Shown here piece by piece: positions 3,759 to 44,342 of a DNA stretch of 64,000 nucleotides. The translations under genes were made by a program, and so were the position numbers. The stretch's first letter is position 1. Every line of letters starts with the position of its first letter. This DNA is from SAR324 cluster bacterium (GTDB lineage: Bacteria; SAR324; NAC60-12). The notes under the pieces are model-generated. The model did not search any database, was not told the DNA's origin, and saw only the letters and a program-made list of their open reading frames with translations. The stretch is taken from assembly GCA_015231885.1 (NCBI GenBank), contig JADGAT010000016.1, forward strand, positions 660-64,659, read 5' to 3'.

Positions 3759-5312
3759 ATGCCGATTAAAAAAGAATTAACCGATAAATTAAAAGAGCAG
3801 CGAAAAAAAGCCCTGGCAGCTGGTGGACAAGATAAAATTGACAAGCGTCATGAAAAAGGACAGCTGACTGCAAGAGAGCGAGTGGAGCGGCTCATAGACC
3901 CGAATACTTTCCAGGAACAGGGTCTCCATGTAGAGCATGATTGTCATGAATTCGGTATGGAAAGCAAGTTTCTGGCAGGAGACGGAGTGATTACTGGAAT
4001 GGGGCACGTTGATGGACGTCCCGTATCCGTTGCCAGTCAAGATTTCACCGTTGGTGGTGGTACCTTAGGAACCAAGCATGCCCAAAAAATAGCGCGAGCT
4101 ATGGACAATGCCGGAGACCTGGGAACTCCATTGGTTGCTATTAACGATTCTGGTGGAGCCAGAATTCAGGAAGGGGTGAGTTCTCTTTCCGGATATGGAC
4201 AGGTTTTTTATCGAAATGTATACCTTTCGGGCCTGGTTCCGCAAATTGCGATCATTGCAGGACCCTGTGCCGGAGGAGCAGCCTATTCCCCTGCCTTGAC
4301 GGACTTCTTGATCATGACAAAAACTGGTGCCAGTATGTTCATCTGCGGGCCCGAGGTCATCCGTGCGGCCACCGGAGAGCAAGTCACCATGGAAGAGATT
4401 GGAAGCGCCACGGCCCATGCAACCGTCAGTGGAAACATCCATTTTGTGGCAGAAGATGATGATCATGCCATCGCCATTACTAAAAAGCTTTTGAGTTTCC
4501 TCCCGTCTAACAACATGCAGGACCCTCCTCATCATCTTAATGAGGAAATTGCACTGACCAGTGATAAATCAATCAATGATATTCTCCCTGAAGATCCCAG
4601 ACGCCCATTTGATACTAAAAAAGTGATTGAAAAAATCGTGGACAATGGTGACTTTTTGGAAGTCCAGGAATTTTGGGCAAAAAACATCATCGTTTGTTTT
4701 GGCCGCATTGATGGAATCGTGGTTGGATTCATCTGCAATCAGTCAAGTTTTAAAGCCGGAGCCATTGATATTGATGCATCCGATAAGGCAGCGCGTTTTA
4801 TTCGTTTCTGTAATGCATTCAATATTCCCATCGTCAACCTGGTGGATGTTCCCGGTTTCATGCCTGGAAAACAACAGGAAGCCGGCGGTATCATTCGTCA
4901 TGGGGCAAAGATGCTCTCTGCTTATTCCTCTGCAACAGTGCCAAAAATAACCCTGATCATGCGCAAAGCTTATGGCGGTGCTTATTTGGCAATGTGCAGC
5001 AGTGACCTTGGTGCTGATCGGGTATATGCCTGGCCAACTGCTGAAATTGCAGTAATGGGTGCAGAAGGTGCCGTGAACATTCTCTACGGCAAAGAATTGA
5101 AGAGTGCTGAGAATGCAGACGCACAACGAGCCAAGTACCAGGAGGAGTATCGCGAACGCTTTGCCTCTCCTTATCAGGCTGCTCGTCTTGGATTGATAAC
5201 CGATGTGTTTGAGCCTTCAGAAACCAAGAGAGTGCTTTCATTAGCCTTGCACAATCTTCTCAGCAAGCGTATTAGTCGTCCGCCCAAAAAACATGGTCTG
5301 ATTCCTATGTAA
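3759..5312 (+). CDS. mmdA: Acyl-CoA carboxyltransferase subunit of a Na+-translocating decarboxylase (methylmalonyl-CoA decarboxylase alpha-like)
   Basis: 517 aa. Propionyl-CoA carboxylase beta / methylmalonyl-CoA carboxyltransferase-type sequence. First gene of an operon that also encodes a membrane anchor, a biotin carrier and a beta pump subunit. Confidence 0.8.
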   Translation: MPIKKELTDKLKEQRKKALAAGGQDKIDKRHEKGQLTARERVERLIDPNTFQEQGLHVEHDCHEFGMESKFLAGDGVITGMGHVDGRPVSVASQDFTVGGGTLGTKHAQKIARAMDNAGDLGTPLVAINDSGGARIQEGVSSLSGYGQVFYRNVYLSGLVPQIAIIAGPCAGGAAYSPALTDFLIMTKTGASMFICGPEVIRAATGEQVTMEEIGSATAHATVSGNIHFVAEDDDHAIAITKKLLSFLPSNNMQDPPHHLNEEIALTSDKSINDILPEDPRRPFDTKKVIEKIVDNGDFLEVQEFWAKNIIVCFGRIDGIVVGFICNQSSFKAGAIDIDASDKAARFIRFCNAFNIPIVNLVDVPGFMPGKQQEAGGIIRHGAKMLSAYSSATVPKITLIMRKAYGGAYLAMCSSDLGADRVYAWPTAEIAVMGAEGAVNILYGKELKSAENADAQRAKYQEEYRERFASPYQAARLGLITDVFEPSETKRVLSLALHNLLSKRISRPPKKHGLIPM

Positions 5313-5396
5313 TTGAATTTTAAAAACCGGGAGGATTCATCTTTCGCATCAAAATGCAGAATTGATATTCCTCCACCTATATGGATTGATCCAGCT

Positions 5397-5822
5397 ATGA
5401 TTTGGAAACGAACAGTTAGAATATTATTTTTTTTAGTAATGGTCCTTCTCTGGGGAGCCGCAAATTCATACGCAGCCTCTGAGTTATTCATCGTCCCGGT
5501 TGTTGGTTTAGCAACCGTTTTAGCGACCTTGGTTTTATTGTATATTCTTTGTGCTTTGGTTGGTCGTTATTTCATCAATCAGGACAAAGCAGCAGCGGCA
5601 AAAGCAGCCCCTGCTCCTGTCGCCACAGCTGCTCCTGCCGCAGAGACTAAGAAGACAGAATCGTTGGATGGCGTTTCTCCAGAATTAATTGCCATTCTCT
5701 CTGCAGCCGCAGAGTCCGTATTGAGAAAACCCGTAGCAATTGTCCGAGTCTCAGCAGCCCGCGATCATTGGTGGGCAGTACAGGGCCGTCAGGCACATCA
5801 TCATTCGCGTAAAACAAGATAA
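5397..5822 (+). CDS. Small membrane-anchor subunit of the decarboxylase (OadG/MmdD-like)
   Basis: Single N-terminal TM helix followed by an Ala/Pro-rich linker, as in OadG/MmdD. Start set at the internal Met (MIWKRTV...), since the frame at 5313 overlaps the end of mmdA. Confidence 0.5.
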   Translation: MIWKRTVRILFFLVMVLLWGAANSYAASELFIVPVVGLATVLATLVLLYILCALVGRYFINQDKAAAAKAAPAPVATAAPAAETKKTESLDGVSPELIAILSAAAESVLRKPVAIVRVSAARDHWWAVQGRQAHHHSRKTR

Positions 5823-5852
5823 TCCGCAATCATTTGAAATTGGAAATGCATT

Positions 5853-6251
5853 ATGAAAAAATTACGAATCACTGTAGAAGATAAAGAGTACGAAGTAACT
5901 GTCGAAGTTTTAGAAGACGATGAGAGTTATTATCAGCCGATGCCTCAAGCGGCTGCGGGGGCTGCTCCTGCAGCCCGTTCTGCACAAGTAGACGCACCGC
6001 CAGTATCCGCACCGAAGCCTGCCGCACCCAAAGCCGCCGCAGGAGACCTTCCCAGTCCTTTAGCAGGAAATGTCTTTAAAGTTTTGGTAAAACCTGGAGA
6101 CAGCTTTACAGCAGGACAAGACCTGATCATTTTGGAAGCAATGAAGATGGAAACCAGTATTTCTGCTCCCAGTGATGGTACTGTCGCTGCAGTTCATGTC
6201 AAAGAAGGCGATACCGTACAAGAAGGACAAGCGTTAATATCAATATCTTAA
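5853..6251 (+). CDS. mmdC: Biotin carboxyl carrier subunit (biotinyl domain)
   Basis: Ala/Pro-rich linker followed by a lipoyl/biotinyl domain carrying the biotinylation motif EAMKME. 132 aa. Confidence 0.8.
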   Translation: MKKLRITVEDKEYEVTVEVLEDDESYYQPMPQAAAGAAPAARSAQVDAPPVSAPKPAAPKAAAGDLPSPLAGNVFKVLVKPGDSFTAGQDLIILEAMKMETSISAPSDGTVAAVHVKEGDTVQEGQALISIS

Positions 6252-6254
6252 GGA

Positions 6255-7376
6255 TTGAAACTTATGGACGTAATTCTCGAATTTACAGCACTCGGACATG
6301 TCACGTGGAAAATGCTGGTGATGTGGGTTGTCTGCATGTTAATGTTCTATTTGGCAATACACAAAGGCTTTGAGCCCATGCTTCTGATTCCTATAGGTTT
6401 TGGAGCATTACTGGCAAATCTTCCCACCGAAGGAATACTGCATGTTCCTGGAGGGCACGGACTGTATGATATTATTACAAAAGGGATCGAATTCGAACTG
6501 TTCCCTCCTTTGATCTTTTTAGGAGTGGGGGCGCTGACAGACTTCGGACCATTGATTGCCAACCCGCGTACGCTGCTTTTAGGTGCAGCGGCACAGGTGG
6601 GAGTCTTTGCAACTTTTTTCACAGCAGTATTGCTTGGATTTTCTTCACAAGAAGGTGCTGCTATTGGAATCATTGGAGGAGCCGATGGGCCTACCTCTAT
6701 CTTCCTTGCTAATAAGCTTGCTCCTCATCTCGTTGGGGCTATCGCAGTAGCTGCTTATTCTTATATGGCGCTGGTACCGCTCATCCAACCCCCTATCATG
6801 TATGCGCTGACCACCCAGAAGGAACGTTTGATTCGCATGAAGTCACTGCGTAAAGTAACAAAGCTAGAGCGTATCATCTTTTGTTTGATGGTGATGGTTA
6901 TCTGTATCTTGATCATTCCATCAGCTTCTCCTCTGATTGCCATGCTGATGCTGGGCAACTTACTGAGAGAAAGCGGGGTTGTCGAGAGACTCAACAAAGC
7001 ATCTCAAAATGAAATCATCAATATCGTGACTATCTTTTTAGGAACGAGTGTGGGCATCACAATGAGTGGTGACAGTTTTCTAAAGGCGGAGACATTGATG
7101 ATTCTAGGTATGGGAATTGTTGCATTCGGACTTTCTACGGCTGGCGGTGTGCTAATGGCAAAAGCAATGAATATGTTGAGCCCAAAAAACCCGATCAATC
7201 CTCTGATTGGTTCTGCTGGAGTATCTGCGGTTCCAATGGCAGCCAGGGTTTCTCAGGTTGTTGGTCAAAAAGAGGATCAAGGCAATTTTTTGCTGATGCA
7301 TGCCATGGGTCCTAATGTGGCAGGTGTGATTGGAACAGCCGTTTGTGCAGGCTATTTCATTGCACACTTCAGATAA
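6255..7376 (+). CDS. mmdB: Na+-transporting decarboxylase beta subunit (OadB/MmdB/GcdB family)
   Basis: 373-aa polytopic membrane protein. Sequence typical of the OadB beta-subunit family. Lies immediately downstream of the biotin carrier gene. Confidence 0.85.
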   Translation: MKLMDVILEFTALGHVTWKMLVMWVVCMLMFYLAIHKGFEPMLLIPIGFGALLANLPTEGILHVPGGHGLYDIITKGIEFELFPPLIFLGVGALTDFGPLIANPRTLLLGAAAQVGVFATFFTAVLLGFSSQEGAAIGIIGGADGPTSIFLANKLAPHLVGAIAVAAYSYMALVPLIQPPIMYALTTQKERLIRMKSLRKVTKLERIIFCLMVMVICILIIPSASPLIAMLMLGNLLRESGVVERLNKASQNEIINIVTIFLGTSVGITMSGDSFLKAETLMILGMGIVAFGLSTAGGVLMAKAMNMLSPKNPINPLIGSAGVSAVPMAARVSQVVGQKEDQGNFLLMHAMGPNVAGVIGTAVCAGYFIAHFR

Positions 7377-7943: not shown

Positions 7944-8843
7944 TCACAGTAAATAATAAAGGATAGGGAGGGTTCCAAAGCTCAAAACGATTCCCAAGCC
8001 TACCAGGGCTGCCGTCAGGGCTGGGGATAAGCCTGCCAGGATTGCCAGTGCTCCGGCAGATACCATTGGAGGCATACCCGCTTCGAAGATGGAAACATCC
8101 ACAACTTTTCCTTCCAAACCAATAGCTCTGCACAAAATGAGTGCTGTCAGAGGAGCAATCATCAGTTTGAACACTAGACCGATGGCAAGGGGGGCTTTTG
8201 TTTCACTGCTCAAACGAAGAGTCAGTTGATAACCAACGGCAATCATGACAACTGGAACCAGCGTTGAACCTAACGCTTCAAGAAGACTGCTCACCACCGC
8301 AGGGTATTCAAAAGGTTTGAGTATGAAAGCAGACAGTAAGGCAATAAAAGGAGGAAAGGTGATGATTTTCTGCACAACACTTGTTACTGTGGGTTTACTG
8401 TCTTGTGTCCCATAAAAGGCAATGACGAGGGAGCCATAGGTAGCCAGTGCGAGGAAAGACCCTAGTTGATCATAGAGTACCGCATAGGGAGTGACCTCTT
8501 CTCCAAAAAATGCCCGAACCATCGGAATTCCTAGAAAAGAAGTGTTTCCAAGAGGGACCACAAGTAGCAGGCATCCGGTGATGTGCCGGTCCCATTTTAA
8601 AATTTTTGACAACAAGAGAACACCAGCACAAGAGAACACCAGCATCACCCAGGGCATGACGGCAGGAACCAGTATTTCCGTGGAAACGGGGAGCCGCGGG
8701 ATGGTCCGTAAAATCACAGCAGGCAAAGAGATATAGATGACAAACAAATTCAGGGAGTTTCCCGTCTCACTAGGAAATTGTGGAATTCTCCGGATGGCAA
8801 TGCCTATCAAAAGATACGCAAGGATGATGATGAAATTCTCCAT
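7944..8843 (-). CDS. AEC-family (malate permease / auxin-efflux-carrier-like) transporter
   Basis: 299-aa hydrophobic protein. It is a second, divergent AEC paralog flanking the decarboxylase operon. Confidence 0.65.
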   Translation of the reverse strand: MENFIIILAYLLIGIAIRRIPQFPSETGNSLNLFVIYISLPAVILRTIPRLPVSTEILVPAVMPWVMLVFSCAGVLLLSKILKWDRHITGCLLLVVPLGNTSFLGIPMVRAFFGEEVTPYAVLYDQLGSFLALATYGSLVIAFYGTQDSKPTVTSVVQKIITFPPFIALLSAFILKPFEYPAVVSSLLEALGSTLVPVVMIAVGYQLTLRLSSETKAPLAIGLVFKLMIAPLTALILCRAIGLEGKVVDVSIFEAGMPPMVSAGALAILAGLSPALTAALVGLGIVLSFGTLPILYYLL

Positions 8844-9023: not shown

Positions 9024-12000
9024 ATGCTCATGAGTACTAAAGTAACGTCACATTCCAAACACTCCGGCTTTAATCGAGATTTGCAGCTTGAAAAAGGAAT
9101 CAGCGGCTTTGTCACAGCAATGAGCGGTTTGGACCGGGATGGGGAGCGAAGCATTCACAAAAACCCTTATTTGAAGTTATTGAAAGAAACGATCAAGCAG
9201 GCATCCAATCTGGATGAAAAACGAGATCGCATTGCAGAAGCATTGATTGTTCATCTTGGGTTTCAACGAATCAAATACTATTCCGTCCTGCCCAAAGGAA
9301 GCTCCTACTTTGTCAAGTCAGAGCAGGTATGGGAAAGAGTGGAAGGGCCAGCAGGTCAGATTCAAATCACCAAAGCCGCATTGGAAGCATCCAAATACTA
9401 CCCTGGAAAGTTCGTGGAAGCAGAAAGTGCCATGGAACGCACCATTTTGATGGGCCAGCGCATCGTTTCGGATGTTGCGTCAGAACCCTACTACCGAAAT
9501 GAATTTACTGCCAATGATCCATTTGTGATGGTTCGTGTTGTGGGGGATGATAGTAAGGTCGCCGGAGTTTTAAAGGCTGATGCTTTTGAATATTCTCCAA
9601 CCAAACCAACGACATGGGTAGAAAAAGACCTCCAGGATAAAATGAAACTCATGAAATCTTTGGTTGAAAATCTAACCTTAGAGCTCATTAGCAACAACCC
9701 TGCTTCGTTTATTCAGCACCGTCCCATCAATGAGATAATTCAGGCAAATAAGAAAAATCTGCACCGCATCAATGACATCCGCAGCCTGCAGAAAGTGCTG
9801 ATTCAATCTTCATCTTTGACCAAAGAGCTTTTTATCAAAATTGGACAGACCCTGCTTTCCGACCGTTTTGGATTTACTGCCCTGCGGGTGTATTACCGCG
9901 ATCCTGCCACCAATACGGTCAAGTCAGGCAGGGTGATGGAAAAAGGAGATGAATTTCCCCACATTAACTTCAATTCTTCATACTGGAATACAGGATTTGG
10001 CCGCATGCTCCATCAGGGAGAAATCTTTGAAACGGCGGCTCGTACCAATCGTCCTATTGTGGTGGCAGATCCTGCAAATGACTATCGCTGCAGTGAAACA
10101 AGAAATCCGTTTTTGGATGATCCGTCTTCCAGTACCAAACCCTTTATTGTATTTCCCATTGGGCCTTATGGAAAAGATGGATTTATTAAACTCGACGGAT
10201 CTTCCATCGACATGGAAACCGATATTGAGCAGATGTATGGAAGTCTTTATGAACGATTGATGATCCTGGAACCATTGATCAAGCAAATTCAAATTTGCCG
10301 TGAAGAGGAGATGCAGCTCCCTTCCATTGAAGACACATGGCTGAAAGAATTCAAACTGGATATTTTTGACAACATATCTCCTCTTGAATTCAAAATAAGC
10401 ACCCTGAGAATTATGACAAAAACCGTTTTTCTCATGGATGAAAATGGGTTGGTGATTGATGAAATCAACACGATGCTGACAACGGACAGCCAAGGGCCCA
10501 TATTGTTGGAGGCATTAAGGTTTCTCAAGACAGTGATACAAAGCAGCCATGTTTCCCTGGAAAGCAAAACCAGTGTCTTTGACAGAGTGGTTGATCTTTA
10601 TAGGAACAACACCAGTGTGACTGCTGAAATGCGGCTGATTATGATCAATATCCTTTCCCTGCTGCAAAGGTTCTTTCCAAAATCTGGAATTTCCTGGCAT
10701 CAAGTCTATTTTGAATTAAGTGACATCAGTAACAACCCCCGGGTTATCTCTGCTTGGGTTAAAAGCATGCTGCACTTCATTCACATTCGTTCGATTCGAG
10801 ACAAGAAGCAAATTAATGAATACCTGGACATCATCAAGCGCATCACCTACCAAAGTCCGCTCAGCAAAAAAGATTATTTTCATGCCTGGGGTGTTTTAGC
10901 ACTGACCGGAGTATTGGACTCCGACTCCATGGTTCACTCCATTGAGCAAATGAAAGAGTATCTCAAGCGGGTTCCCCATGAACTGCCGCAAGTCTTTTCT
11001 TATGTTGCGACCATCCTGAATTCCATGGGAAATGTGTATGCCTTCAAAGAGCTTCCCAAGCGCCAAAGAAAAATCATCGAAAAAAGTTTATTTAAGTTTT
11101 TAAACCATTCCAGTCTGCATTATCGTCAGGTTGCGATTGTTGTCCTGGGAGACATGGCATTGAATCCCATGATCTCCAGAAAGAAAAGAATGCAGTTCAT
11201 TGACAAACTCATCCTGCAGCTGTATGACTCCTCTCCGATTATCCAGGAAAGTGCCATTTCTGTGTTGGTGAATATGAGCCACGAGGCCGAGTTCATTGTC
11301 AGAGAATATCAAAATGCTGGAAAAGCAAGTAAGCATGTCAAAAGTTTGTTAAAAGAAATTATCAACACTTACAACCGTCCTAATGATTTGAGTGGGGCTC
11401 GTGTGATGAGTGTTGATTTGAATGGAGAAGGACTTGGATTTGCCTCAGTCGGACCTAAATCGGAAAATCTTATTAAGCTCAATGAAAATATCAAAAGGAT
11501 CAGCCAGCTGCTGCATGTCCATAATATGTATGTTCCTAATGAAGTCACCTTAGCCAGCACCGAATATCAAGAATTTATCAGACAGGCAAAACTATCTTCG
11601 AAACTGGAAAAAACCCTGACGGCCATTGATTTTGAACAGTCGGCTCCTGATCTGCAGCTTCAATTGCAGACAGCTCACGAAAAGATTGAAAATCTATTCA
11701 TTCGAACCGAATTGCCTCCAGAAATCAAATACTCACTGGGATCTATTTTTATGGGCCACAAAGAATATTTTTTACAAAAAGGTATTTTATTTCCTGGTTT
11801 TGCGGCACGATCAGCGGCTGATGATGAGGATAAAAAGGATACAACGGCAGCCGGAAGATATGCCACTTTTCCTAATATCCAAACTTTAGAAGAACTGGAA
11901 TACTATGTGAAGCGGGTTTGGGCATCCCTCTGGTCACCAGAAGCCATGATTCATCGAAATTTGACAGGGTTGTCCCAAGCCGTTGATACAGTAAAGATGT

Positions 12001-13817
12001 CTGTTATCATCCAGATCATGGCTCCGGAAGTACAGACGTCGGGAGTGATTTTTGTTCAGAACAATGACGGTTGTCTGGATATGGAAATCAGCGCAGGATT
12101 TGGTCAATCCTGTGGGACAAGAAACAATGACAATACCGACCTCATCAAAGTGAAAGGAACTGAAATTCAGATAGAAATAGAAAGACAATATTTTCAAATT
12201 ATTACTGATGAAGAGGGGGAAGAAAAACAGGTTGAATTGTCAATAGAAGAAGGCAGCAGACAGAAGCTCACTACAGCACAAATAGAGCAGTTGATCCTTT
12301 CTGCCCGTGAATTGAGTAATGACCTTCTTTCGCCAGGGTTCCAGAATACACTCAATGACTTAGAATTTGCCATTGTCCCAAGCAATCGAGATCCTGGATA
12401 TCAAATTGCCTGGCTGCAGCAGCGCTACATGACAATGGATGAAGTGACAACGGAAGACGTATCAAATTTTGAAAGCACACCCCATGTCGTGTCTTCTGAT
12501 AAAGAACCTTATATCTACGGGAAAGCGTGTGGCATGGTACAGATCATGACGGAGGAAGATGTGTTTGATGAAGTTAAAAAACGCCAAATTCTGAAACACT
12601 CAGGAGGAAAGATATTGGTTTCCAATCGGCTTGATGAAGAAAACTTACCTTTGTTTTTTGGAAAGGAGGCCCCTGCTTTTGTCATTATTGAAATTGGTTC
12701 CAAGGCATCACACATTGTAAGAGAAGCCGATCAATTACTTAGAAAATACGGGAGAAGAATTCCCGTCATTAAAATCCAGCATGCCACCCAGTTGTTCGCA
12801 GGCATTTCTGAAGTATCCATCGAAGCCAAAGAGGGGGGACACCATCTCTATTTCCAAAATGAAAAAGACAAACAGGTTTTTATTGAGCGGCAGAGCAAGC
12901 TGAATGACAAAAAAGAAACTACTTTTGCCGAGAAATACTCAACTCCAGCAAAGCCTGTGATCTCTATCGAAGATTATCATTTGGAAGCATTGCCGGTTAA
13001 CCAGCAAACCCTTTTGAAAAGAACCGACTATGAAGTATCCATACAGGTCCTGATTGAAAAGGGAACTGACCTGCCAGGGAAAGTCGAAAACGTATTGAAC
13101 AGCCTGTATGCCATCAATACAATGCGTAAGGACCTTTTTACCACCAGTTTCACCAGCCAAATCGAGGCTCCTGACGAGTATGATCGAACTGCGGACTACC
13201 TGGGAGAAATCTATATGTTTTTCATTTCTATCCAGCGTTTTGGCACACCAGGTAAAATTACGGGGAAAATTCAAACAGCAGGCATAGAAAATGGGAAAAG
13301 GCTGACAGATCCTGAGCACAGTCTGTATCAAATTTCAACAATCATCCACCAAACGAATCAGCTCATCGAAGTCATCAATAAAACATGTTGGAAAGGTCAG
13401 TGGAGTCCCAGGCTGCTCGAATACTATTGTCCAAGCCCGCATGATGGATTAATTCCAAGCAGCAAAAGTTTTGCGATCCATGCAAAAGATTGGAGTATTA
13501 TTGTGGAAACATCGGATGATGAACTCATTTTTCATGATGCGGTGTATCAGCTCTTCCCAGTGTCAGAAAAACCTTTATTGCTGAGAGGATTGACACAAGG
13601 CAGTGTCAACGGCGGAGGTAAGCTTTGGATTGGATTTCGAGATACCACTCTTTTTAATACAACAGAAAAACAAGCACACATTTTGGCAGAGGCTGCTGGC
13701 TACTTTCTGAAACAAGGCTTTCATCCGAACCTGGATGTTCAGATTATGGAGGCAGGAACCATGTTTGGAGGCCCATTGAAAGAACACATGACATTATTTG
13801 AGCTGAGCCGGATTTGA
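9024..13817 (+). CDS. Giant multidomain protein: N-terminal GAF-like region, HEAT/armadillo-like repeats, then a PEP-utilizing-enzyme module (PPDK-N ATP-grasp nucleotide-binding domain plus phosphohistidine mobile domain), and a C-terminal region of unknown function
   Basis: 1597-aa uninterrupted ORF. The segment 'VWASLWSPEAMIHRNLTG...VIIQIMAPEVQTSGVIFVQN' matches the PEP-synthase / rifampin-phosphotransferase ATP-binding domain. 'IGSKASHIVREAD...RRIPV' resembles the GGRTSHAAIVAREL phosphohistidine loop. Confidence 0.7.
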   Translation: MLMSTKVTSHSKHSGFNRDLQLEKGISGFVTAMSGLDRDGERSIHKNPYLKLLKETIKQASNLDEKRDRIAEALIVHLGFQRIKYYSVLPKGSSYFVKSEQVWERVEGPAGQIQITKAALEASKYYPGKFVEAESAMERTILMGQRIVSDVASEPYYRNEFTANDPFVMVRVVGDDSKVAGVLKADAFEYSPTKPTTWVEKDLQDKMKLMKSLVENLTLELISNNPASFIQHRPINEIIQANKKNLHRINDIRSLQKVLIQSSSLTKELFIKIGQTLLSDRFGFTALRVYYRDPATNTVKSGRVMEKGDEFPHINFNSSYWNTGFGRMLHQGEIFETAARTNRPIVVADPANDYRCSETRNPFLDDPSSSTKPFIVFPIGPYGKDGFIKLDGSSIDMETDIEQMYGSLYERLMILEPLIKQIQICREEEMQLPSIEDTWLKEFKLDIFDNISPLEFKISTLRIMTKTVFLMDENGLVIDEINTMLTTDSQGPILLEALRFLKTVIQSSHVSLESKTSVFDRVVDLYRNNTSVTAEMRLIMINILSLLQRFFPKSGISWHQVYFELSDISNNPRVISAWVKSMLHFIHIRSIRDKKQINEYLDIIKRITYQSPLSKKDYFHAWGVLALTGVLDSDSMVHSIEQMKEYLKRVPHELPQVFSYVATILNSMGNVYAFKELPKRQRKIIEKSLFKFLNHSSLHYRQVAIVVLGDMALNPMISRKKRMQFIDKLILQLYDSSPIIQESAISVLVNMSHEAEFIVREYQNAGKASKHVKSLLKEIINTYNRPNDLSGARVMSVDLNGEGLGFASVGPKSENLIKLNENIKRISQLLHVHNMYVPNEVTLASTEYQEFIRQAKLSSKLEKTLTAIDFEQSAPDLQLQLQTAHEKIENLFIRTELPPEIKYSLGSIFMGHKEYFLQKGILFPGFAARSAADDEDKKDTTAAGRYATFPNIQTLEELEYYVKRVWASLWSPEAMIHRNLTGLSQAVDTVKMSVIIQIMAPEVQTSGVIFVQNNDGCLDMEISAGFGQSCGTRNNDNTDLIKVKGTEIQIEIERQYFQIITDEEGEEKQVELSIEEGSRQKLTTAQIEQLILSARELSNDLLSPGFQNTLNDLEFAIVPSNRDPGYQIAWLQQRYMTMDEVTTEDVSNFESTPHVVSSDKEPYIYGKACGMVQIMTEEDVFDEVKKRQILKHSGGKILVSNRLDEENLPLFFGKEAPAFVIIEIGSKASHIVREADQLLRKYGRRIPVIKIQHATQLFAGISEVSIEAKEGGHHLYFQNEKDKQVFIERQSKLNDKKETTFAEKYSTPAKPVISIEDYHLEALPVNQQTLLKRTDYEVSIQVLIEKGTDLPGKVENVLNSLYAINTMRKDLFTTSFTSQIEAPDEYDRTADYLGEIYMFFISIQRFGTPGKITGKIQTAGIENGKRLTDPEHSLYQISTIIHQTNQLIEVINKTCWKGQWSPRLLEYYCPSPHDGLIPSSKSFAIHAKDWSIIVETSDDELIFHDAVYQLFPVSEKPLLLRGLTQGSVNGGGKLWIGFRDTTLFNTTEKQAHILAEAAGYFLKQGFHPNLDVQIMEAGTMFGGPLKEHMTLFELSRI

Positions 13818-13822: not shown

Positions 13823-14407
13823 TCATGTCTCAAAATCAACCCCTTCATCTTTTTCAAAAAAAGATTCTTCAGGTTCGGATGGATCTTCAAAAATGCTTGT
13901 TTCCTCATCAGTAGAAGCATCTTCGGCCAGCAAATATTCTTTCAGAGGATCAAAGTCTCCGTGAAAATAGCGAATTGTGGCCATGTGCTGATGTAAAAAC
14001 TCTTGTCCTGTTTGGCTGTCCAGCAGATCAACAAACCATTGGTAGGCGTGCGAAGATGGACTTTTTGAGATGTGAAGACCGAGACATCCCCTCAAAAAAC
14101 CCCCAAAATTGACCACCCCATCTTTGACTTCACTTTGTAATTCGGACGGCATTTCTCCGGAAAACCCCCTCACAACAACGGGCACTTCTAGAATATGCAA
14201 TTTTTTCAAATCTTCTATTTTCAACATGTCAAATGAATCAACATGCTGAGGATCAAATGTTAAGTATCCCGCATCCTGATAGTGAATCGTGATGCGGTCG
14301 TTCCTCTGTCTGGAGATTGTTGCAGAAAATCCATCCTGCTGATGAATAGTAACAAAGAAATCTTTGTCCCGCCGTTTTCCTTTTCGAATCCCGTATAAGA
14401 TAAACAT
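13823..14407 (-). CDS. Hypothetical protein (acidic C-terminus)
   Basis: 199-aa ORF, convergent with the giant gene and ending 6 bp from it. No recognisable domain. The start is probably at MFILYGIRKG. Confidence 0.45.
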   Translation of the reverse strand: MFILYGIRKGKRRDKDFFVTIHQQDGFSATISRQRNDRITIHYQDAGYLTFDPQHVDSFDMLKIEDLKKLHILEVPVVVRGFSGEMPSELQSEVKDGVVNFGGFLRGCLGLHISKSPSSHAYQWFVDLLDSQTGQEFLHQHMATIRYFHGDFDPLKEYLLAEDASTDEETSIFEDPSEPEESFFEKDEGVDFET

Positions 14408-14558
14408 TGCTGATTCTTTCATATTTCCTTTCGTAACTCTGCGATCAAGATACTATATAGCGCCAGATGATTCAAGACGTTCTGTCCCTGTGTCCGCATT
14501 AATTTTCCCTTCCACATAATGAATAATTTGACTACACGCGCTTTGTGTTGTATTTTTG

Positions 14559-14591
14559 ATATTATTTACAGTATTATTTACAGTATTATTT
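14559..14591 (+). promoter_or_regulatory. Tandem direct repeats (TATTATTTACAG x2.75) in the vapBC promoter region; candidate autoregulatory operator
   Basis: Two exact 12-bp repeats at 14559-14570 and 14571-14582, plus a partial third, lying 16 bp upstream of the vapB start. Confidence 0.4.
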
Positions 14592-14606
14592 TATACGAAG
14601 GTTAGA

Positions 14607-14852
14607 ATGCAAAGAATATCCGTGACACTTCCTGATGATGTCGTACAACGATTTCATGCAAAGGTTGAAAAAGGGGAACGTTCAAAATTTATTACGAATG
14701 CAATCAAAGAAGCTCTCCAAAAAGAAGAAAAATGGAAAGCATTTCAATCACTGACTCAATTCAAACCATTCGCGGTTTTCCGTGACTCAACAGAGGTGTT
14801 AAGAGAAATCAGAGAAAAAGGCCCTAAAGAGACATTAGAGGAGAAACAATAG
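14607..14852 (+). CDS. vapB: Ribbon-helix-helix (CopG/VapB-like) antitoxin
   Basis: 'MQRISVTLPDDVVQRFHAKV' is a typical RHH N-terminal beta-strand plus helix. GAAGG RBS upstream. The stop lies 1 nt before the PIN gene. Confidence 0.7.
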   Translation: MQRISVTLPDDVVQRFHAKVEKGERSKFITNAIKEALQKEEKWKAFQSLTQFKPFAVFRDSTEVLREIREKGPKETLEEKQ

Positions 14853-14853
14853 G

Positions 14854-15288
14854 ATGCCTTTATATATAATTGATTCTTCTGTATTTAATAAATTGTATTT
14901 AGAAGAGCCAGGAAGGAATACTGCTCTCATGATTTTCGAGCAGGCATCGAAAGGAAATATCAATTTATTGGCTCCTCAGTTATTATACTATGAGGTCATC
15001 GCAACAGCACAGTATTATAAATTACCCATAGGCTCTATTTCACAACTGCTAGATCAACAGATAAAATACAATCTACCCCTTGTCGAGCCCACAGAGGAAC
15101 ATCGGCATAAAGCTATTGAAATTATTCAGATGGGACATCCTAAGAATGGATCCCCAACAATTTATGATGCAATATTTCACGCTATTGCGATCATAGAAAA
15201 TGGAACATTTGTTACAGCAGATAGAAAACACTTTGTTAAGGCAAATACACTTGGTTACATTACGATGTTAGAGACATGGGAAGCATAA
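14854..15288 (+). CDS. vapC: PIN-domain toxin (VapC family)
   Basis: N-terminal 'YIIDSSVF' (first catalytic Asp), a central acidic residue, and C-terminal 'FVTADRKHF' (conserved Asp). 144 aa. Translationally coupled to the upstream RHH gene. Confidence 0.75.
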   Translation: MPLYIIDSSVFNKLYLEEPGRNTALMIFEQASKGNINLLAPQLLYYEVIATAQYYKLPIGSISQLLDQQIKYNLPLVEPTEEHRHKAIEIIQMGHPKNGSPTIYDAIFHAIAIIENGTFVTADRKHFVKANTLGYITMLETWEA

Positions 15289-16497: not shown

Positions 16498-17043
16498 ATG
16501 TTAAAACCAAACCCATTGAAATTTATAAACGTTCTAGCCATATTTATCGTTATTGTCACATGTTCGCTGAAAGCAGCAGCCCAAACTTCTATTGACAGCC
16601 TTCCCATCAGAAACTTAAGTCATCCTGAGGGAAATACATTTGCCAGCGGACAACCCACTAAAGAGGAATTTTCATCACTGGCTGAATTGGGAATCAAACA
16701 CATAATCAATCTCCGTCCTGCTGAAGAACAAAGTTGGAACGAAGGCGAATATGTTGAAGCACTTGGCATGAAATATCATTCGATACCTGTTGCGGGTGCG
16801 GCTGGAATTACTAAGGAAAATGCATTATTATTTGCTGCCACGCTAAAAGAAATTGGGGGAGCTCCCACGCTAGTACATTGCGCCAGTGGAAACCGAATTG
16901 GAGCCCTCATTGCCTTGCGCCAGGGATTATTAGAAGGGAAAGATATTGAAACGGCTGTGAATCATGGAAAATTATGGGGGCTCACCCGTTTAGAACCTTT
17001 AGTACGTGAGATGCTATCCAAATCTCTTTTGAGACCATTATGA
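16498..17043 (+). CDS. Secreted DUF442-type putative phosphatase / sulfurtransferase-fold protein (PTP-like Cys loop)
   Basis: N-terminal signal peptide. Contains a 'VHCASGNRIG' Cys-X4/5-Arg P-loop. Confidence 0.6.
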   Translation: MLKPNPLKFINVLAIFIVIVTCSLKAAAQTSIDSLPIRNLSHPEGNTFASGQPTKEEFSSLAELGIKHIINLRPAEEQSWNEGEYVEALGMKYHSIPVAGAAGITKENALLFAATLKEIGGAPTLVHCASGNRIGALIALRQGLLEGKDIETAVNHGKLWGLTRLEPLVREMLSKSLLRPL

Positions 17044-17324
17044 AAAAAACATTCAAACTGACCCACCCGAAAATCAAAGTTGCCAGGCTTGTTGAAGCCA
17101 TCAAGCATGAAGTGAGAAAATATCTAAAAAGAGAACGCAGGAAGAATTTACCGAAAGATGCTGATTTTTGGGATTTTGACTGCCGGTATGGTGATGACGA
17201 ATCCAGTAGTCAAGTCATCCATGTGTCTGATATTGATAAATTCATTAATCAGGCCGAGTTGAAGCAGCTGGAATCCTTTTATTTGGAAATTCTGGCCAAA
17301 CCTGGTTATCGAAAAAAAAGATAA
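17040..17324 (+). CDS. Small basic hypothetical protein
   Basis: 94 aa. Overlaps the upstream gene by 4 nt (ATGA), suggesting translational coupling. Confidence 0.45.
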   Translation: MKKTFKLTHPKIKVARLVEAIKHEVRKYLKRERRKNLPKDADFWDFDCRYGDDESSSQVIHVSDIDKFINQAELKQLESFYLEILAKPGYRKKR

Positions 17325-20773: not shown

Positions 20774-22423
20774 ATGATTGGACATTACAAACTTTTAATT
20801 GTGGATGACAGTAACTTCATTCGATTGACTTTGAAGAAATGCCTGCAATCCAATAAAAATGCTCCCATCCAGGTGACCGAAGCGCATGACGGGCAACATG
20901 CCCTTGAAATCCTTTCCGCCGATTCCTTTGACCTGATTATCACTGATTTGGAAATGCCCAATTTGAATGGTTTGGGGTTGATTGCGGAATTACGCAAAAG
21001 TGCCAAATATGACGAAGTTCCTATAATTTTTCTGACCAGTGTTGATACGTCTGATAAAAAAGTGTCGGCATTTGAATGCGGTGCTACCGATTACTTGATA
21101 AAACCCTTCATTGCAGAAGAATTGATCGCACGAATTTTTGCCCATCTGGAGCGAAAATTCATGATGGAAGCGGTACGCAAAAAAGCCAAAGTCGCTGAAA
21201 ACTTGACGGTTTTTTATCGGCGACTGAGATCCATCAATCTGGAAAACTTAGAGCATACCCTGATATTTTTACTCATCAACCACCTCAGGGTCGGTTCGGT
21301 TGCTCTTTGGGAATTTGATCAGTCTAAAGAAGTGCTTCAATTGAAAATTTCCAGTGATAAACTGGGGACCGAATTGCCACCGCAGACGGACAATGAGTCC
21401 CCTATGTGGAAGGCTTTTGAAGAAAAACAGCCTGTTTTTTTAGAAAACCTGGAAGGAGCGGCTGTCGAAAATTTAGGTTTCAACCTACAGGCTTACTCTG
21501 GTGGTGCCATTACGGTGATTCCTTTGGCAATTGATGATAAACGTTTTGGTATTCTGAATTTAGCCAACTTTCCTGCAACATTTTTTTCTGATTATGAGCT
21601 GACTCACTTGGAGGCATTGCAACATTACATTTCCAATTCCTTTGAAAATGCTTTTTCTTATAAAATCATTAAGGAAAAACAGGAACAAACCAAGGCAGAA
21701 CTGAAGCAGGCAAAAGACACACAGTTGGCCGTGCTGCCGCAAAAAATTCCCAAGCTGCCCTACATGAAAATTGTAACAAAATACTCGGCAATGGAAGAAA
21801 TTGGTGGAGATTTGTACGATATTCTGGAACTCAGCGAAGACAAAGTTGGGATTTTAGTGGCAGATGTGACAGGCCATGGGATTCCTGCCGCTTTGATTTC
21901 CTGTATGAGTTCGAGTTTATTCAAAGCCACAGCAGCCTCAGATATACTGCCCAAGGATGTACTGACCTACATCAATGATCAACTGGAGACACGCATGCCC
22001 GATGGAAAGTTTGTGACAGCGTTTTATTCCACGTATGATGCTGCCAGAGAGACCTTGTTTTATTCAATTGCCGGTCACCCTCCTGGTTATGTCGTCAGGG
22101 AGGCGACAGGAGAAATATTTCCGTTACAGGAAAATACCGGAGTACCTCTGGGGGTCTTTTCTGGAGACATTGCCAGCTATGATGATGCTTCTATGAAGCT
22201 GCAAAAAGGAGATCGCGTGTTTTTCTATACCGATGGCATTGTTGAAATATCCGATCCGCAAGAGGAGATGTTTGGCAATGCGCGTCTCAAGGAGTTTCTC
22301 TTGGCAAATAGCAAAACTCCTATTGAAAACGTGCTGGATGAGTTATATTCCCATGTACTTCAAGCGACATCCCATCAGGAATATGATGACGACATCACAC
22401 TGGTAGCGTTTGAAATCACATAA
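20774..22423 (+). CDS. Response regulator (REC) fused to a GAF-like region and a PP2C/SpoIIE-type serine phosphatase (RsbU-like)
   Basis: N-terminal 'LLIVDDSNFIR...DLIITDLEMP' receiver domain. C-terminal 'GGDLYDIL...VADVTGHGIPAAL...DDITLVAF' PP2C motifs. Confidence 0.8.
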   Translation: MIGHYKLLIVDDSNFIRLTLKKCLQSNKNAPIQVTEAHDGQHALEILSADSFDLIITDLEMPNLNGLGLIAELRKSAKYDEVPIIFLTSVDTSDKKVSAFECGATDYLIKPFIAEELIARIFAHLERKFMMEAVRKKAKVAENLTVFYRRLRSINLENLEHTLIFLLINHLRVGSVALWEFDQSKEVLQLKISSDKLGTELPPQTDNESPMWKAFEEKQPVFLENLEGAAVENLGFNLQAYSGGAITVIPLAIDDKRFGILNLANFPATFFSDYELTHLEALQHYISNSFENAFSYKIIKEKQEQTKAELKQAKDTQLAVLPQKIPKLPYMKIVTKYSAMEEIGGDLYDILELSEDKVGILVADVTGHGIPAALISCMSSSLFKATAASDILPKDVLTYINDQLETRMPDGKFVTAFYSTYDAARETLFYSIAGHPPGYVVREATGEIFPLQENTGVPLGVFSGDIASYDDASMKLQKGDRVFFYTDGIVEISDPQEEMFGNARLKEFLLANSKTPIENVLDELYSHVLQATSHQEYDDDITLVAFEIT

Positions 22424-22426
22424 CGT

Positions 22427-23644
22427 TCAGGAGCAAGACTTTTTAGGAAGGATAATCTTGAATGTGGCACCAACTGCTTCAGTGGAAATATATTTTACCA
22501 TCCCATTGTGATCTTCAACCGCTTTTTTAACAATAGTCAATCCCAGTCCTATTCCTGTCGTTTTTCCATGAGAGACAAAGGGATCAAACAGGGACTGTTG
22601 AATTGCCGGTGGAATACCAGGTCCATTGTCCTCAATTTCAATTTCCAAATGATCTTCAAAATCAAACACTTCTACACGGATACGTGGATTTTCTGTTTTA
22701 GAATAGCGCAGTGCTTCCCAGGCGTTTTTGCATAAGTTGACCAAAGCCCTGTGAATTCGGTTGGCATCCAAATGATATAAGGCTGTTGTTGACAATTCTA
22801 ATTGCAGAGTAATTGGCCAGGCCTGTGTGATTTGAGTGAATTCCTTTTGTAGATGATCTAACATCTGCCTGGAGTCGATTGGCTGTAAATGGACGGTACT
22901 GGGGTCTTTGGCAAACAGCAAAATTTCCTCAATCATGCCAACCAGACGCTGAATTTCATCATTCAGCAATTCTCCATAGTTTTCGCGTTGTTCTTCTGTT
23001 AAATCCTGATGAACAAGTACATATCCCATGGTCGAAATACTGGTAACGGGATTTCGGAGGTCGTGAACAATCATAGAAGCCATCTTGCCCAGGGTACTCA
23101 AGCGCTCTTGCTGCACCAATTCGTTTTGTGTTTCCTGCAGTAAAGTGAGTGTTTCTTCCAATTTTATATTTTTCTTCTGCAACATCTCAATCAGCATACT
23201 ATCTGTTTGCCGGAGACGTTGACTGAGAAACTTCATGAGATTGATAGCAAACCGGCTTCTTTCCACAACAAGAAGTTTTTCAAAATTGATTTCGTCAATG
23301 ATGAGAAAATGGGATCGTGTTTTTGTTTTTAAACTCGCGCTCCTGGGCTCATTCTCAATAACGGCCATTTCTCCAAAACAATCCCCCTGTTTACCAACAG
23401 TCAGAATCGTTGGTGCCTCTTCCAATCCTAAGAATAGAACTGTTTCCCCGTCCAACTGAAAAAAAATTTTCTTCCCCAAATCTCCTTCACGAAAAACAAT
23501 GGTGCTGGCATCATACTGCTCAATGGTTGTATATTGGGAGATATCGATCAATTGCTGCTCAGGAATATCCTTGAACAAGTGGGTATCCTTTAGGGTTAAG
23601 ATCCATTCAGAAGCCGTTTTTTTATTTTTAGAATTGTTCATCAT
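22427..23644 (-). CDS. Cyclic-nucleotide-binding-domain sensor histidine kinase
   Basis: N-terminal cNMP-binding domain (FGEMAVIENEPRSAS). HisKA H-box 'IVHDLRNPVTSI'. HATPase_c 'GIGLGLTIVKK'. Confidence 0.8.
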   Translation of the reverse strand: MMNNSKNKKTASEWILTLKDTHLFKDIPEQQLIDISQYTTIEQYDASTIVFREGDLGKKIFFQLDGETVLFLGLEEAPTILTVGKQGDCFGEMAVIENEPRSASLKTKTRSHFLIIDEINFEKLLVVERSRFAINLMKFLSQRLRQTDSMLIEMLQKKNIKLEETLTLLQETQNELVQQERLSTLGKMASMIVHDLRNPVTSISTMGYVLVHQDLTEEQRENYGELLNDEIQRLVGMIEEILLFAKDPSTVHLQPIDSRQMLDHLQKEFTQITQAWPITLQLELSTTALYHLDANRIHRALVNLCKNAWEALRYSKTENPRIRVEVFDFEDHLEIEIEDNGPGIPPAIQQSLFDPFVSHGKTTGIGLGLTIVKKAVEDHNGMVKYISTEAVGATFKIILPKKSCS

Positions 23645-37524: not shown

Positions 37525-37537
37525 ACGTAAACTCCTT

Positions 37538-38611
37538 CTATCGTGCCAATCGCATGACCTCTGGGGCAATGTTACGCAGAGAGAGTATGTGATCGGCAGC
37601 ACCCAGCTTGATTGCTTCTTTGGGCATCCCAAACACCACACAAGATGCTTCATCCTGGGCAATAGTAATGGCCCCTGCCTCTTTCATTTCAAGCAAACCT
37701 TTTGCTCCATCATCCCCCATTCCTGTCATAATCACTCCCATCGCATTTTTTCCGGCATACCGAGACGCCGAACGAAAGAGAACATCAACGGAAGGGCGGT
37801 GACGACTGACCAGAGGCCCGGGTTTTACCTCAACGTAGTAACGGGCGCCACTGCGTTTTAGCAAGGCATGGTAATCTCCTGGAGCAATCAATGCCTGACC
37901 GCGGAGAACACTATCATTATTAGAGGCTTCTTTAACGGTGATGGCGCATGACTGATTCAAACGCTCGGCAAAGGCTGTTGTGAAATTACCAGGCATGTGC
38001 TGTACAATCACAATACCCGGAGTGTCTGCAGGGAATGCTTCCAAAAAAGTTTTTAATGCTTCGGTACCACCTGTAGAAGCACCTACCATGACCACCGTTT
38101 CTGTGGTGCGAACCATGGCACTGCCTGAGGTGGACTTAGCCAACATCGCATCTGCTGTGAGTTTTTTAGCCACCTTGACAGGTTCTGCTTTTTTGACAAC
38201 ACGTTTAGCTCGTGTCATGGCAGCAGCAACGATTGTATCGCAGATGGTTACTTTGGATTCTTCAAAAAATTGTTTGGTGCCCAATTTGGGTTTTTGAATG
38301 ATTTCAATGGCCCCATATTCCATTGCTTTGAGAGCGGTTTCTGACCCCATTTCTGTCAAACTGGAACACATTACTACGGGAATCGGATGCTGGCTCATGA
38401 TCTTTTTCAAGAAAGTGATTCCATCCATACGCGGCATTTCAACATCCAGGGTGATTACATCGGGCACATTGTCCCGTAACTTTTGTGCTGCAACAAAAGG
38501 ATCGGATGCTGTCGCCATCACTTCAATTCGGGAGTCCGACTCTAGTATATCACAAAGAGTTTGGCGAACCACAGCAGAGTCATCGACAATCAATACTTTA
38601 ATTTTACCAGT
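37538..38611 (-). CDS. cheB: CheB-type response-regulator protein-glutamate methylesterase
   Basis: REC domain '[14 protein letters not shown]'. CheB methylesterase domain with 'GASTGG' Ser and 'VVFGMP'. Start taken at MTGKIKV. Confidence 0.8.
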
Positions 38612-39907: not shown

Positions 39908-39912
39908 CCTTT

Positions 39913-44274: not shown

Positions 44275-44342
44275 ACTGTTAGTGATAACATACCAATAAC
44301 ATCGACCGTCGTCTACTGTTGATTTTCAATTCCAATTTTTTC

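What the first reader, a model, noticed from the sequence alone, without database searches (positions are those of the whole stretch)
9024..13817. 1597-aa multidomain protein embedding a PEP-utilizing-enzyme phosphotransferase module behind GAF-like and HEAT-like repeat regions
A single uninterrupted ORF combines a PPDK-N-type ATP-grasp nucleotide-binding domain ('ASLWSPEAMIHRN...IIQIMAPEVQTSGVIF') and a phosphohistidine swivel domain ('IGSKASHIVREAD') with about 850 N-terminal residues of putative sensory/scaffold domains and a 330-aa C-terminal extension. This architecture resembles rifampin-phosphotransferase/PEP-synthase-like kinases but is far larger, so the protein may be a signal-regulated phosphotransferase of unknown substrate. 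It is convergent and nearly abutting (6 bp) with an acidic hypothetical gene.
Basis: partly seen in the sequence, partly recalled or inferred. Interest (0 to 1): 0.6.

Follow-up and report, generated by a model that had tools for sequence, protein, structure and literature searches.

The report
Giant sensor-fused dikinase, unknown substrate
This is a real 1,597-residue gene from a rare family of PEP-synthase-like "dikinase" enzymes in which the usual pyruvate-binding barrel has been replaced by an unrecognised domain and about 800 residues of likely sensor and scaffold domains have been added in front, so its chemistry can be predicted but its substrate cannot.

Summary
The ORF (9024..13817, +) is real, uninterrupted and identical in two independent assemblies of a SAR324 MAG. 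Pfam confirms a PPDK_N ATP-grasp domain (aa 808-1140, E 3e-35), and all key catalytic columns are conserved. Pfam misses the phosphohistidine swivel domain, but a profile-profile comparison recovers it (95%, E 2.5e-8) with His1230 on the catalytic histidine.

The N-terminus is a tandem duplication of a ~150-aa domain with recurring sub-threshold GAF_2 hits. A helical, weakly HEAT-like region follows.

The C-terminal ~320 aa form a family-specific domain. It is not the PEP/pyruvate TIM barrel and not the RPH substrate domain, and its confidently modelled last ~130 residues match no fold in PDB or BFVD.

An exhaustive search of 1.8 billion representative proteins, plus follow-up searches, found about seven other lineages with this core. 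They include long (~2,700 aa) and short (969 aa) forms, and several come from magnetotactic bacteria.

Most likely it is an active ATP-dependent His-phosphotransfer (dikinase-type) enzyme with an unknown acceptor and N-terminal regulation. It is a new variant of a known kind and moderately interesting. The abutting acidic gene is not a conserved partner, but an upstream AEC-family transporter gene is conserved in two phyla.

The parts
9024..13817 (+). Complete gene for the 1597-aa protein (alternative start at 9030 gives 1595 aa, as in the NCBI model HQM14_06465)
9165..9623 (+). N-terminal domain A (aa ~48-200), first copy of a tandem-duplicated GAF-like domain
   Evidence: hhalign of A against B: 94%, E 1.1e-7; conserved across family
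9771..10298 (+). N-terminal domain B (aa ~250-425), second GAF-like copy; holds the sub-threshold Pfam GAF_2 hit (aa 325-379)
   Evidence: GAF_2 in 3 of 6 members, best E 0.0011
10299..11423 (+). Helical region (aa ~426-800), weakly HEAT/ARM-like
   Evidence: Cnd1 PF12717 E 9e-5, below cutoff; family profile against PDB 2db0 E 0.004
11445..12443 (+). PPDK_N ATP-grasp nucleotide-binding domain (aa 808-1140), with K812, R929, S930, E935, D936, G944, Q997, D1112, E1114, Q1132, R1134
12507..12842 (+). Divergent phosphohistidine swivel (PEP-utilizers mobile) domain, aa ~1162-1273
   Evidence: hhalign 95.2%, E 2.5e-8; weak hit of the family profile to the swivel-like C-terminal domain of pyruvate kinase 2e28 with the His aligned
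12711..12713 (+). Codon of His1230, the predicted phospho-carrier histidine (motif GSKASH)
   Evidence: invariant in all family members; aligned with the catalytic His of GGxxSHAAI
12843..13388 (+). Poorly conserved, predicted-helical linker region after the swivel domain (aa ~1274-1455)
   Evidence: pLDDT below 50, helices
13389..13814 (+). Family-specific C-terminal alpha/beta domain (aa ~1456-1597) with invariant H1504, R1521, G1522 and G1537 and near-invariant D1540; candidate acceptor-binding domain
   Evidence: (pLDDT ~80-90)
7944..8843 (-). Divergently transcribed AEC-family (Mem_trans) transporter gene. Its orthologue (62% identical) occupies the same position next to the Thermodesulfobacteriota homolog. 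Possible functional partner, not proven.

Best explanation
The gene encodes an active, very large member of the PEP-utilizing (dikinase) enzyme superfamily. Inferred mechanism, by analogy with PEP synthase, PPDK, rifampin phosphotransferase and glucan water dikinase: the ATP-grasp domain (aa 808-1140) binds ATP; the beta-phosphate is passed to His1230 on the swivel domain, releasing AMP and Pi; the swivel domain then carries the phosphate to an acceptor held by the family-specific C-terminal domain (aa ~1274-1597; conserved H1504, R1521-G1522, G1537, D1540). That domain sits exactly where PEP synthase has its pyruvate-binding TIM barrel. The ~800 N-terminal residues (two GAF-like domains and a helical repeat region) are accessory, most likely regulatory or scaffolding, because one family member (969 aa) lacks the GAF-like domains and most of the helical region while others add ~1000 more residues. 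Shown here: the domain identities, the conservation of catalytic residues, and the absence of known acceptor domains. Inferred: the phosphotransfer chemistry, the role of the C-terminal domain as acceptor site, and the sensory role of the N-terminus. The acceptor is unknown.
For: PPDK_N at E 3.3e-35. PEP-synthase models align collinearly from the ATP-grasp domain through the swivel domain. PDB PEP synthases and RPH match the ATP-grasp domain. At the columns that are at least 85% conserved in 78 canonical PPDK_N domains, the family keeps R929, S930, E935, D936, A943, G944, S968, Q997, G1007, G1025, E1114, Q1132 and R1134 in 7 of 7 members and D1112 in 6 of 7. Swivel homology at 95%, E 2.5e-8, with invariant His1230 on the catalytic His. 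The ATP-grasp, swivel and C-terminal domains are collinear and conserved in all members across at least three phyla at only 18-28% identity, which implies purifying selection. The N-terminal modules vary: they are absent in P0003 and extended in P0002, L015 and L016. General dikinase mechanism as described in PMC13553574.
Against: No biochemical data exist. Pfam's own swivel model does not reach significance. The C-terminal domain has no recognisable ligand-binding fold, and only its last ~130 residues were modelled with confidence from a 6-sequence alignment. Gene neighbourhoods are not conserved, so they give no pathway hint. The GAF and HEAT assignments are sub-threshold.
Confidence: 0.6

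Rival explanations
1. The acceptor is a macromolecule or surface bound by the large N-terminal region, as glucan water dikinase uses N-terminal carbohydrate-binding modules. On this reading the C-terminal domain serves oligomerisation or regulation rather than acceptor binding.
For: Size and layout resemble GWD (~1400 aa with a large non-catalytic N-terminus; PMC13553574). Helical repeat regions often bind macromolecules.
Against: P0003 (969 aa) lacks the GAF-like domains and most of the helical region yet keeps the ATP-grasp, swivel and C-terminal domains. The most conserved non-catalytic residues lie in the C-terminal domain. No carbohydrate-binding module or other binding domain was detected.
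Confidence: 0.15
2. It is a signalling phosphorelay protein, analogous to the GAF-containing Enzyme I-Ntr (PtsP). A ligand sensed by the GAF-like domains controls autophosphorylation of His1230, and the phosphate goes to a protein partner or to the invariant His1504 in its own C-terminal domain rather than to a metabolite.
For: GAF-like N-terminus. Invariant His and Arg in the C-terminal domain. No metabolic operon context. Signalling genes are abundant in the window.
Against: No HPr-like, PEP-utilizers_N or PEP-utilizers_C domain was found. There is no conserved small partner gene. The phosphoryl donor domain is an ATP-grasp, not a PEP-binding barrel.
Confidence: 0.15
3. It is simply a PEP synthase, PPDK or RPH/PigC-type enzyme with extra domains attached and keeps one of those known activities.
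For: The best named HMM hits are PEP synthase, PigC and RPH.
Against: All those hits fall far below their curated cutoffs (101 against 598, 62 against 1300, 57 against 999 bits). The RPH and PigC alignments cover only the ATP-grasp domain, and the PEP-synthase alignments stop at the end of the swivel domain. There is no PF02896 TIM barrel. hhalign of the C-terminal domain against the barrel gives 0.1%, against 100% for the positive control. There is no relation to the RPH-type central domain.
Confidence: 0.04
4. It is a non-functional relic, a pseudoenzyme scaffold, or an assembly or gene-fusion artefact.
For: Extreme rarity. One homolog (L016) is split by a frameshift.
Against: The protein is identical in two assemblies. 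The architecture is collinear in other phyla. Catalytic residues are invariant despite ~20-28% overall identity.
Confidence: 0.04

Closest known systems
Phosphoenolpyruvate synthase (PpsA; pyruvate, water dikinase; TIGR01418 / NF005057)
   Same: Same domain order in the catalytic core: PPDK_N ATP-grasp, short linker, phosphohistidine swivel domain, then a ~320-aa C-terminal domain. Best-scoring named models, with collinear alignment through the swivel domain. Catalytic ATP-grasp residues and the carrier His are conserved.
   Different: The C-terminal PEP/pyruvate-binding TIM barrel (PF02896) is replaced by an unrelated, unrecognised domain. About 800 extra N-terminal residues. Scores are 6-7 fold below the family cutoffs.
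Rifampin phosphotransferase (RPH) and the related PigC/RedH/YvkC-type small-molecule dikinases
   Same: ATP-grasp plus swivel His without a TIM barrel, with phosphate passed to a non-pyruvate acceptor (mechanism from PMC13553574).
   Different: In RPH-type enzymes the substrate-binding domain lies between the ATP-grasp and a C-terminal swivel domain. Here the swivel domain follows the ATP-grasp directly and the unknown domain is C-terminal. No profile similarity to the RPH-type central domain.
Alpha-glucan water dikinase (GWD/PWD) of plants and algae
   Same: [quoted passage not shown]
   Different: In GWD the order is CBM45s, central domain, His domain, ATP-binding domain. Here the ATP-grasp precedes the His domain and a further domain follows. 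No CBM was detected.
Enzyme I-Ntr (PtsP): GAF-fused PEP-utilizing enzyme
   Same: A GAF(-like) sensor fused N-terminally to a swivel-His phosphotransfer enzyme.
   Different: PtsP uses PEP through PEP-utilizers_C and has a PEP-utilizers_N HPr-binding domain. Neither is present here, and the donor domain is an ATP-grasp.

Membership tests
PEP-utilizing enzyme / dikinase superfamily (ATP-grasp + swivel His) | PPDK_N-type ATP-grasp nucleotide-binding domain | tested here: met
   PF01326 E 3.3e-35, 122 bits against cutoff 27; present in all 6 family members scanned
PEP-utilizing enzyme / dikinase superfamily (ATP-grasp + swivel His) | Conserved ATP/Mg-binding residues of the ATP-grasp (GxK, RS...ED, D-x-E, Q-x-R) | tested here: met
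   K812, R929, S930, E935, D936, D1112, E1114, Q1132, R1134 conserved
PEP-utilizing enzyme / dikinase superfamily (ATP-grasp + swivel His) | Phosphohistidine swivel (mobile) domain with the catalytic His | tested here: met
   Pfam PF00391 not significant (1 of 6 members at E 0.052). hhalign family against 49 canonical domains gives 95.2%, E 2.5e-8, with invariant His1230 on the catalytic His
PEP-utilizing enzyme / dikinase superfamily (ATP-grasp + swivel His) | ATP to AMP + Pi with a phospho-His intermediate | not testable with these tools
   Requires biochemistry
PEP synthase (PpsA) / PPDK | C-terminal PEP/pyruvate-binding TIM barrel (PF02896) | tested here: not met
   No Pfam hit at E up to 10 on the excised C-terminus. 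hhalign against the canonical barrel gives 0.1% (control 100%)
PEP synthase (PpsA) / PPDK | Score above the curated equivalog cutoff | tested here: not met
   NF005057 101 bits against 598; TIGR01418 100 against 740
Rifampin phosphotransferase (RPH) | Central rifampin-binding domain between the ATP-grasp and a C-terminal swivel domain; equivalog score | tested here: not met
   NF041857 57 bits against 999, covering model positions 24-307 only. No profile match to the RPH-type central region. Domain order differs
Glucan water dikinase | N-terminal CBM45/CBM20 and His domain preceding a C-terminal ATP-binding domain | tested here: not met
   No CBM hits. The ATP-grasp precedes the His domain. 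GWD order taken from PMC13553574
Enzyme I-Ntr (PtsP) | GAF + PEP-utilizers_N + swivel + PEP-utilizers_C | tested here: not met
   Only a GAF-like N-terminus and the swivel domain are present; no PF05524 or PF02896
GAF domain | Significant match to a GAF profile or the GAF fold | tested here: inconclusive
   GAF_2 below cutoff: query E 0.034-0.052; 3 of 6 members, best 0.0011. Family profile finds nothing in the PDB. No match to a single GAF template.
HEAT/ARM repeat | Significant match to helical-repeat profiles | tested here: inconclusive
   Cnd1 23 bits against cutoff 26.4. PDB 2db0 E 0.004 with the family profile
Known anti-phage defence systems (PADLOC) | Match to any PADLOC model | tested here: not met
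   0 families for the protein and both flanking genes

The most novel reading that the evidence does not exclude
The family is a previously unrecognised dikinase class with a new acceptor domain, and its distribution is tied to the magnetotactic lifestyle. Of about eight lineages found among ~15 billion proteins, the named ones come from a magnetotactic SAR324 MAG (accession within the range deposited by Lin et al. 2018), from the magnetotactic Nitrospirota genus Ca. Magnetominusculus and related MAGs, and from a Thermodesulfobacteriota MAG. In two phyla the gene travels with a 62%-identical AEC transporter. It could phosphorylate a metabolite or polymer specific to these sediment-dwelling, inclusion-rich bacteria under control of its GAF-like sensors.
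Probability: 0.15. Interest if true: 0.75.

Novelty: new variant of a known kind. Interest (0 to 1): 0.5.

Why it matters
Dikinases that pass the beta-phosphate of ATP through a swivelling histidine are a small, mechanistically distinctive enzyme class. Each new acceptor found so far (pyruvate, starch, rifampicin, prodiginine precursors, flavonoids) has revealed new biology. This family keeps the intact phosphate-delivery machinery but has swapped the acceptor domain for one with no recognisable relative and added what looks like a sensory front end. It therefore marks an undiscovered phosphorylation reaction that is probably ligand-regulated. Its extreme rarity and its appearance in magnetotactic bacteria from different phyla make it a tractable target. 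The core can be expressed, the His-phosphorylation assay is standard, and the conserved C-terminal residues (H1504, R1521, D1540) are obvious mutagenesis targets.

Tried and rejected
1. Single-sequence AlphaFold2 of aa 801-1597 was uninformative (mean pLDDT 34).
2. The word-index protein search found only the protein itself. The same search with the swivel + C-terminal alignment found nothing, not even the query itself, which I take as a tool limitation.
3. Pattern-based scans of GTDB genomes with the single protein found nothing. A five-sequence alignment was too divergent to derive patterns. A two-sequence alignment re-found only the P0002 genome, plus two ordinary PPDK_N proteins.
4. The C-terminal domain as a degenerate TIM barrel: rejected. 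As an RPH-type substrate domain: rejected. As a second swivel domain: rejected.
5. P0157 (128 aa) as a standalone C-terminal domain: rejected. It is the tail of a frameshifted long-form gene.
6. The abutting acidic gene as a conserved partner: rejected. It is not homologous to the L015 downstream gene and is absent from the other loci.
7. Defence-system membership: no PADLOC hits.
9. The family N-terminal profile against the PDB gave no hits, and hhalign against the one GAF domain available in the window gave no match.
10. The extra N-terminus of the long forms as a second ATP-grasp + swivel unit: only weak, collinear signals (17%, E 0.0015; swivel E 0.14), so unresolved.
11. Sample metadata for the unnamed metagenome members could not be traced in the literature.
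Full report
**Observation.** The window holds one uninterrupted ORF at 9024..13817 on the + strand (ATG start, 1597 codons). An identical protein (P0001, 1595 aa, starting at the second ATG at 9030) is annotated as a hypothetical protein of a SAR324 cluster MAG (HQM14_06465) and was seen on two contigs. One of these is PDZZ01000054.1 of GCA_002753255.1, which has the same gene order on both sides. All quoted peptides are present at aa 967, 995 and 1224. The convergent neighbour (13823..14422, -) lies 5 bp away and is acidic (pI 4.8).

**Catalytic core: ATP-grasp.** Pfam finds PPDK_N at aa 808-1140 (E 3.3e-35). NCBIfam PEP-synthase models align collinearly from aa 827 to 1283, up to model position 467 of 798. 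That is through the swivel domain and up to where the TIM barrel would start. The scores are 6-7 fold below the equivalog cutoffs. The RPH and PigC models match only the ATP-grasp part. PDB PEP synthases and Listeria RPH match the ATP-grasp domain (E 5e-11 to 4e-6). I aligned the seven family ATP-grasp domains with 78 canonical PPDK_N domains. At columns at least 85% conserved in the canonical set, the family keeps R929, S930, E935, D936, A943, G944, S968, Q997, G1007, G1025, E1114, Q1132 and R1134 in 7 of 7 members and D1112 in 6 of 7. K812 of the GxK motif is invariant in the family alignment. The nucleotide site therefore looks intact.

**Catalytic core: swivel domain.** Pfam PF00391 does not detect this domain in the whole protein or in the excised segment, and only 1 of 6 relatives reaches E 0.052. 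A profile-profile comparison did detect it. I compared the family region (6 sequences) with 49 canonical swivel domains cut from ordinary PPDK_N proteins found. The result was 95.2% probability, E 2.5e-8, over 95 columns, with the invariant His1230 (GSKASH) on the catalytic His of GGxxSHAAI. A weak profile hit to the swivel-like C-terminal domain of Geobacillus pyruvate kinase (2e28) aligns the same His.

**The family.** The word-index search found only the protein itself. An exhaustive phmmer search of aa 400-1597 against 1.84 billion representatives gave about 1530 hits. Only five non-self proteins matched beyond the ATP-grasp domain: P0002 (2682 aa), P0003 (969 aa), P0004 (1618 aa), P0005 (1688 aa) and P0006 (1819 aa). 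Two more long-form members came from metagenome loci. L015 encodes a 2735-aa protein. L016 is 65% identical to P0002 and is split by a frameshift; the 128-aa hit P0157 is its C-terminal piece, not a standalone domain. Pairwise identity to the query is 18-27%, yet the ATP-grasp, swivel and C-terminal domains are collinear in all members. The N-terminus is modular. It is absent in P0003, present as two domains plus a helical region in the query and the Nitrospirota clade, and preceded by ~1000 further residues in the long forms.

**N-terminus.** The two ~150-aa N-terminal domains are homologous to each other (hhalign 94%, E 1.1e-7), which indicates a tandem duplication. GAF_2 is the only Pfam family that recurs when the N-terminal regions of all members are scanned (3 of 6, best E 0.0011, all below cutoff). 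The family profile finds nothing in the PDB. I call these domains GAF-like but not proven. The region from aa 426 to 800 gives a sub-threshold Cnd1 (HEAT-type) hit and E 0.004 to PDB 2db0, which is weak support for a helical repeat.

**C-terminus.** The ~320 residues after the swivel domain have no Pfam, NCBIfam or PDB sequence match. They are unrelated to the PEP/pyruvate TIM barrel (hhalign 0.1% against 100% for the positive control) and to the central substrate domain of RPH-type enzymes. AlphaFold2 with a 6-sequence alignment gives low confidence for the first ~175 residues (helical). The last ~130 residues form an alpha/beta domain at pLDDT ~80-90. This domain carries invariant H1504, R1521, G1522 and G1537 and near-invariant D1540. 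Foldseek finds no significant match in PDB (best E 0.27) or BFVD (best E 0.015). The other structure libraries were unavailable.

**Context.**
- Upstream is a Na+-translocating decarboxylase operon (3759-7376) and a divergent 299-aa Mem_trans (AEC) transporter gene (7944-8843, -).
- Downstream are the acidic 199-aa gene, an RHH-PIN pair, a dual-specificity phosphatase, DUF6172 and an M16 peptidase.
- The rest of the window is housekeeping and signalling genes, with no magnetosome genes.
- Neighbourhoods of the relatives differ: priA follows the gene in Nitrospirota, a canonical PPDK sits next to P0002, and the others are unrelated.
- The acidic neighbour is not conserved.
- The exception is the transporter. 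The Thermodesulfobacteriota locus has a divergent 299-aa Mem_trans gene that is 62% identical with no gaps. The big proteins are only ~27% identical, and the window's other Mem_trans is only 25% identical.

**Host.**
- PDZZ lies within the accession range PDZS-PEAR deposited by Lin et al. 2018 for MAGs from magnetically enriched cells. The only 'Ca. Lambdaproteobacteria' (SAR324) genome in that set is PCRbin3 (PMC5955933).
- The 2020 follow-up study lists SAR324 MAGs that contain magnetosome gene clusters (PMC7602337).
- P0004 is from Ca. Magnetominusculus dajiuhuensis, and its cluster includes Nitrospirae MAGs with HQK locus tags. Ca. Magnetominusculus is a magnetotactic Nitrospirota genus.
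- At least two of about eight lineages are therefore magnetotactic. That is notable for so rare a family, but the sample is small and phylogeny confounds it.

**Interpretation.** The best-supported reading (confidence ~0.6) is an active dikinase-type phosphotransferase. ATP binds the ATP-grasp domain, the beta-phosphate goes to His1230, and the swivel domain delivers it to an acceptor on the novel C-terminal domain, which occupies the position of the pyruvate barrel in PEP synthase. The N-terminal GAF-like and helical modules regulate or scaffold. The mechanism is inferred from the superfamily (PMC13553574), and the acceptor is unknown.

Rivals:
- N-terminal binding of a macromolecular acceptor, as in GWD (0.15).
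- A PtsP-like phosphorelay, possibly to His1504 (0.15).
- An ordinary PEP synthase or RPH activity (0.04).
- A relic or artefact (0.04).

**Verdict.** This is a new variant of a known kind, a rare PEP-synthase-like dikinase architecture with a replaced acceptor domain. Interest is moderate (0.5).

Noticed in passing
window 7944..8843 (-) and L002 8400..9299 (-): The AEC-family (Mem_trans) transporter gene divergently upstream of the big gene has a 62%-identical, gap-free orthologue in the same position next to the Thermodesulfobacteriota homolog. The big proteins themselves are only ~27% identical. The pairing is absent from the Nitrospirota, L006, L011 and L015 loci.
   Followed up: partly
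L002 10001..18049; L015 5043..13250; L016 3..7441: Long-form homologs (~2,700 aa) carry ~1000 extra N-terminal residues with motifs reminiscent of a second ATP-grasp start and swivel. hhalign gives only weak, collinear signals (17%, E 0.0015 for ATP-grasp; E 0.14 for swivel), so a degenerate duplicated catalytic unit is possible but unproven.
   Followed up: partly
L016 ~6900..7060: The long-form homolog in JGI metagenome 3300056972 is split by a frameshift into a 2315-aa piece and a 128-aa piece (P0157). This is either a sequencing error or a pseudogene.
   Followed up: partly
window 14556..15288 (+): A ribbon-helix-helix (RHH_5, 98 aa) gene followed by an overlapping PIN-domain gene (144 aa), which is a typical VapBC-like toxin-antitoxin pair. 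PIN, HicAB and MazE modules also lie near the homologs in L003 and L006.
   Followed up: no
window 13823..14422 (-): 199-aa protein with no Pfam or PADLOC match and a very acidic C-terminal tail (16 D/E in its last 40 residues). It is also present in the second assembly of this organism but not next to any homolog of the big gene.
   Followed up: partly
window 3759..7376 (+): Complete Na+-translocating decarboxylase operon (carboxyltransferase, OAD_gamma-like, biotin carrier, OAD_beta), flanked by a CYTH-domain gene, a second Mem_trans gene and a fused TRAP DctQM-type transporter gene.
   Followed up: no
window 16498..17324 (+): Dual-specificity/tyrosine phosphatase-like gene (181 aa) overlapping a DUF6172 gene (94 aa, E 1e-41). 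The function of the pair is unknown.
   Followed up: no
window 20774..23644: A response-regulator-GAF-SpoIIE (PP2C) phosphatase gene and a convergent cNMP-binding histidine kinase gene. Further on there is a chemotaxis/c-di-GMP signalling block (CheB, hybrid kinases, GGDEF-EAL, PilZ) at 36079..50987.
   Followed up: no
window 59754..61514 (-): 586-aa ORF with no Pfam family at E <= 1e-4.
   Followed up: no
L003 905..3933 (+): Upstream of the Ca. Magnetominusculus homolog lies a tandem array of five ~156-198-aa genes with no Pfam hits, after a histone-H1-like (HC2) gene. It may be a paralog array.
   Followed up: no
whole window / host: The contig belongs to a SAR324 MAG whose earlier assembly (PDZZ) falls in the accession range of MAGs from magnetically enriched cells (Lin et al. 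2018). This 64-kb window holds no magnetosome genes.
   Followed up: partly
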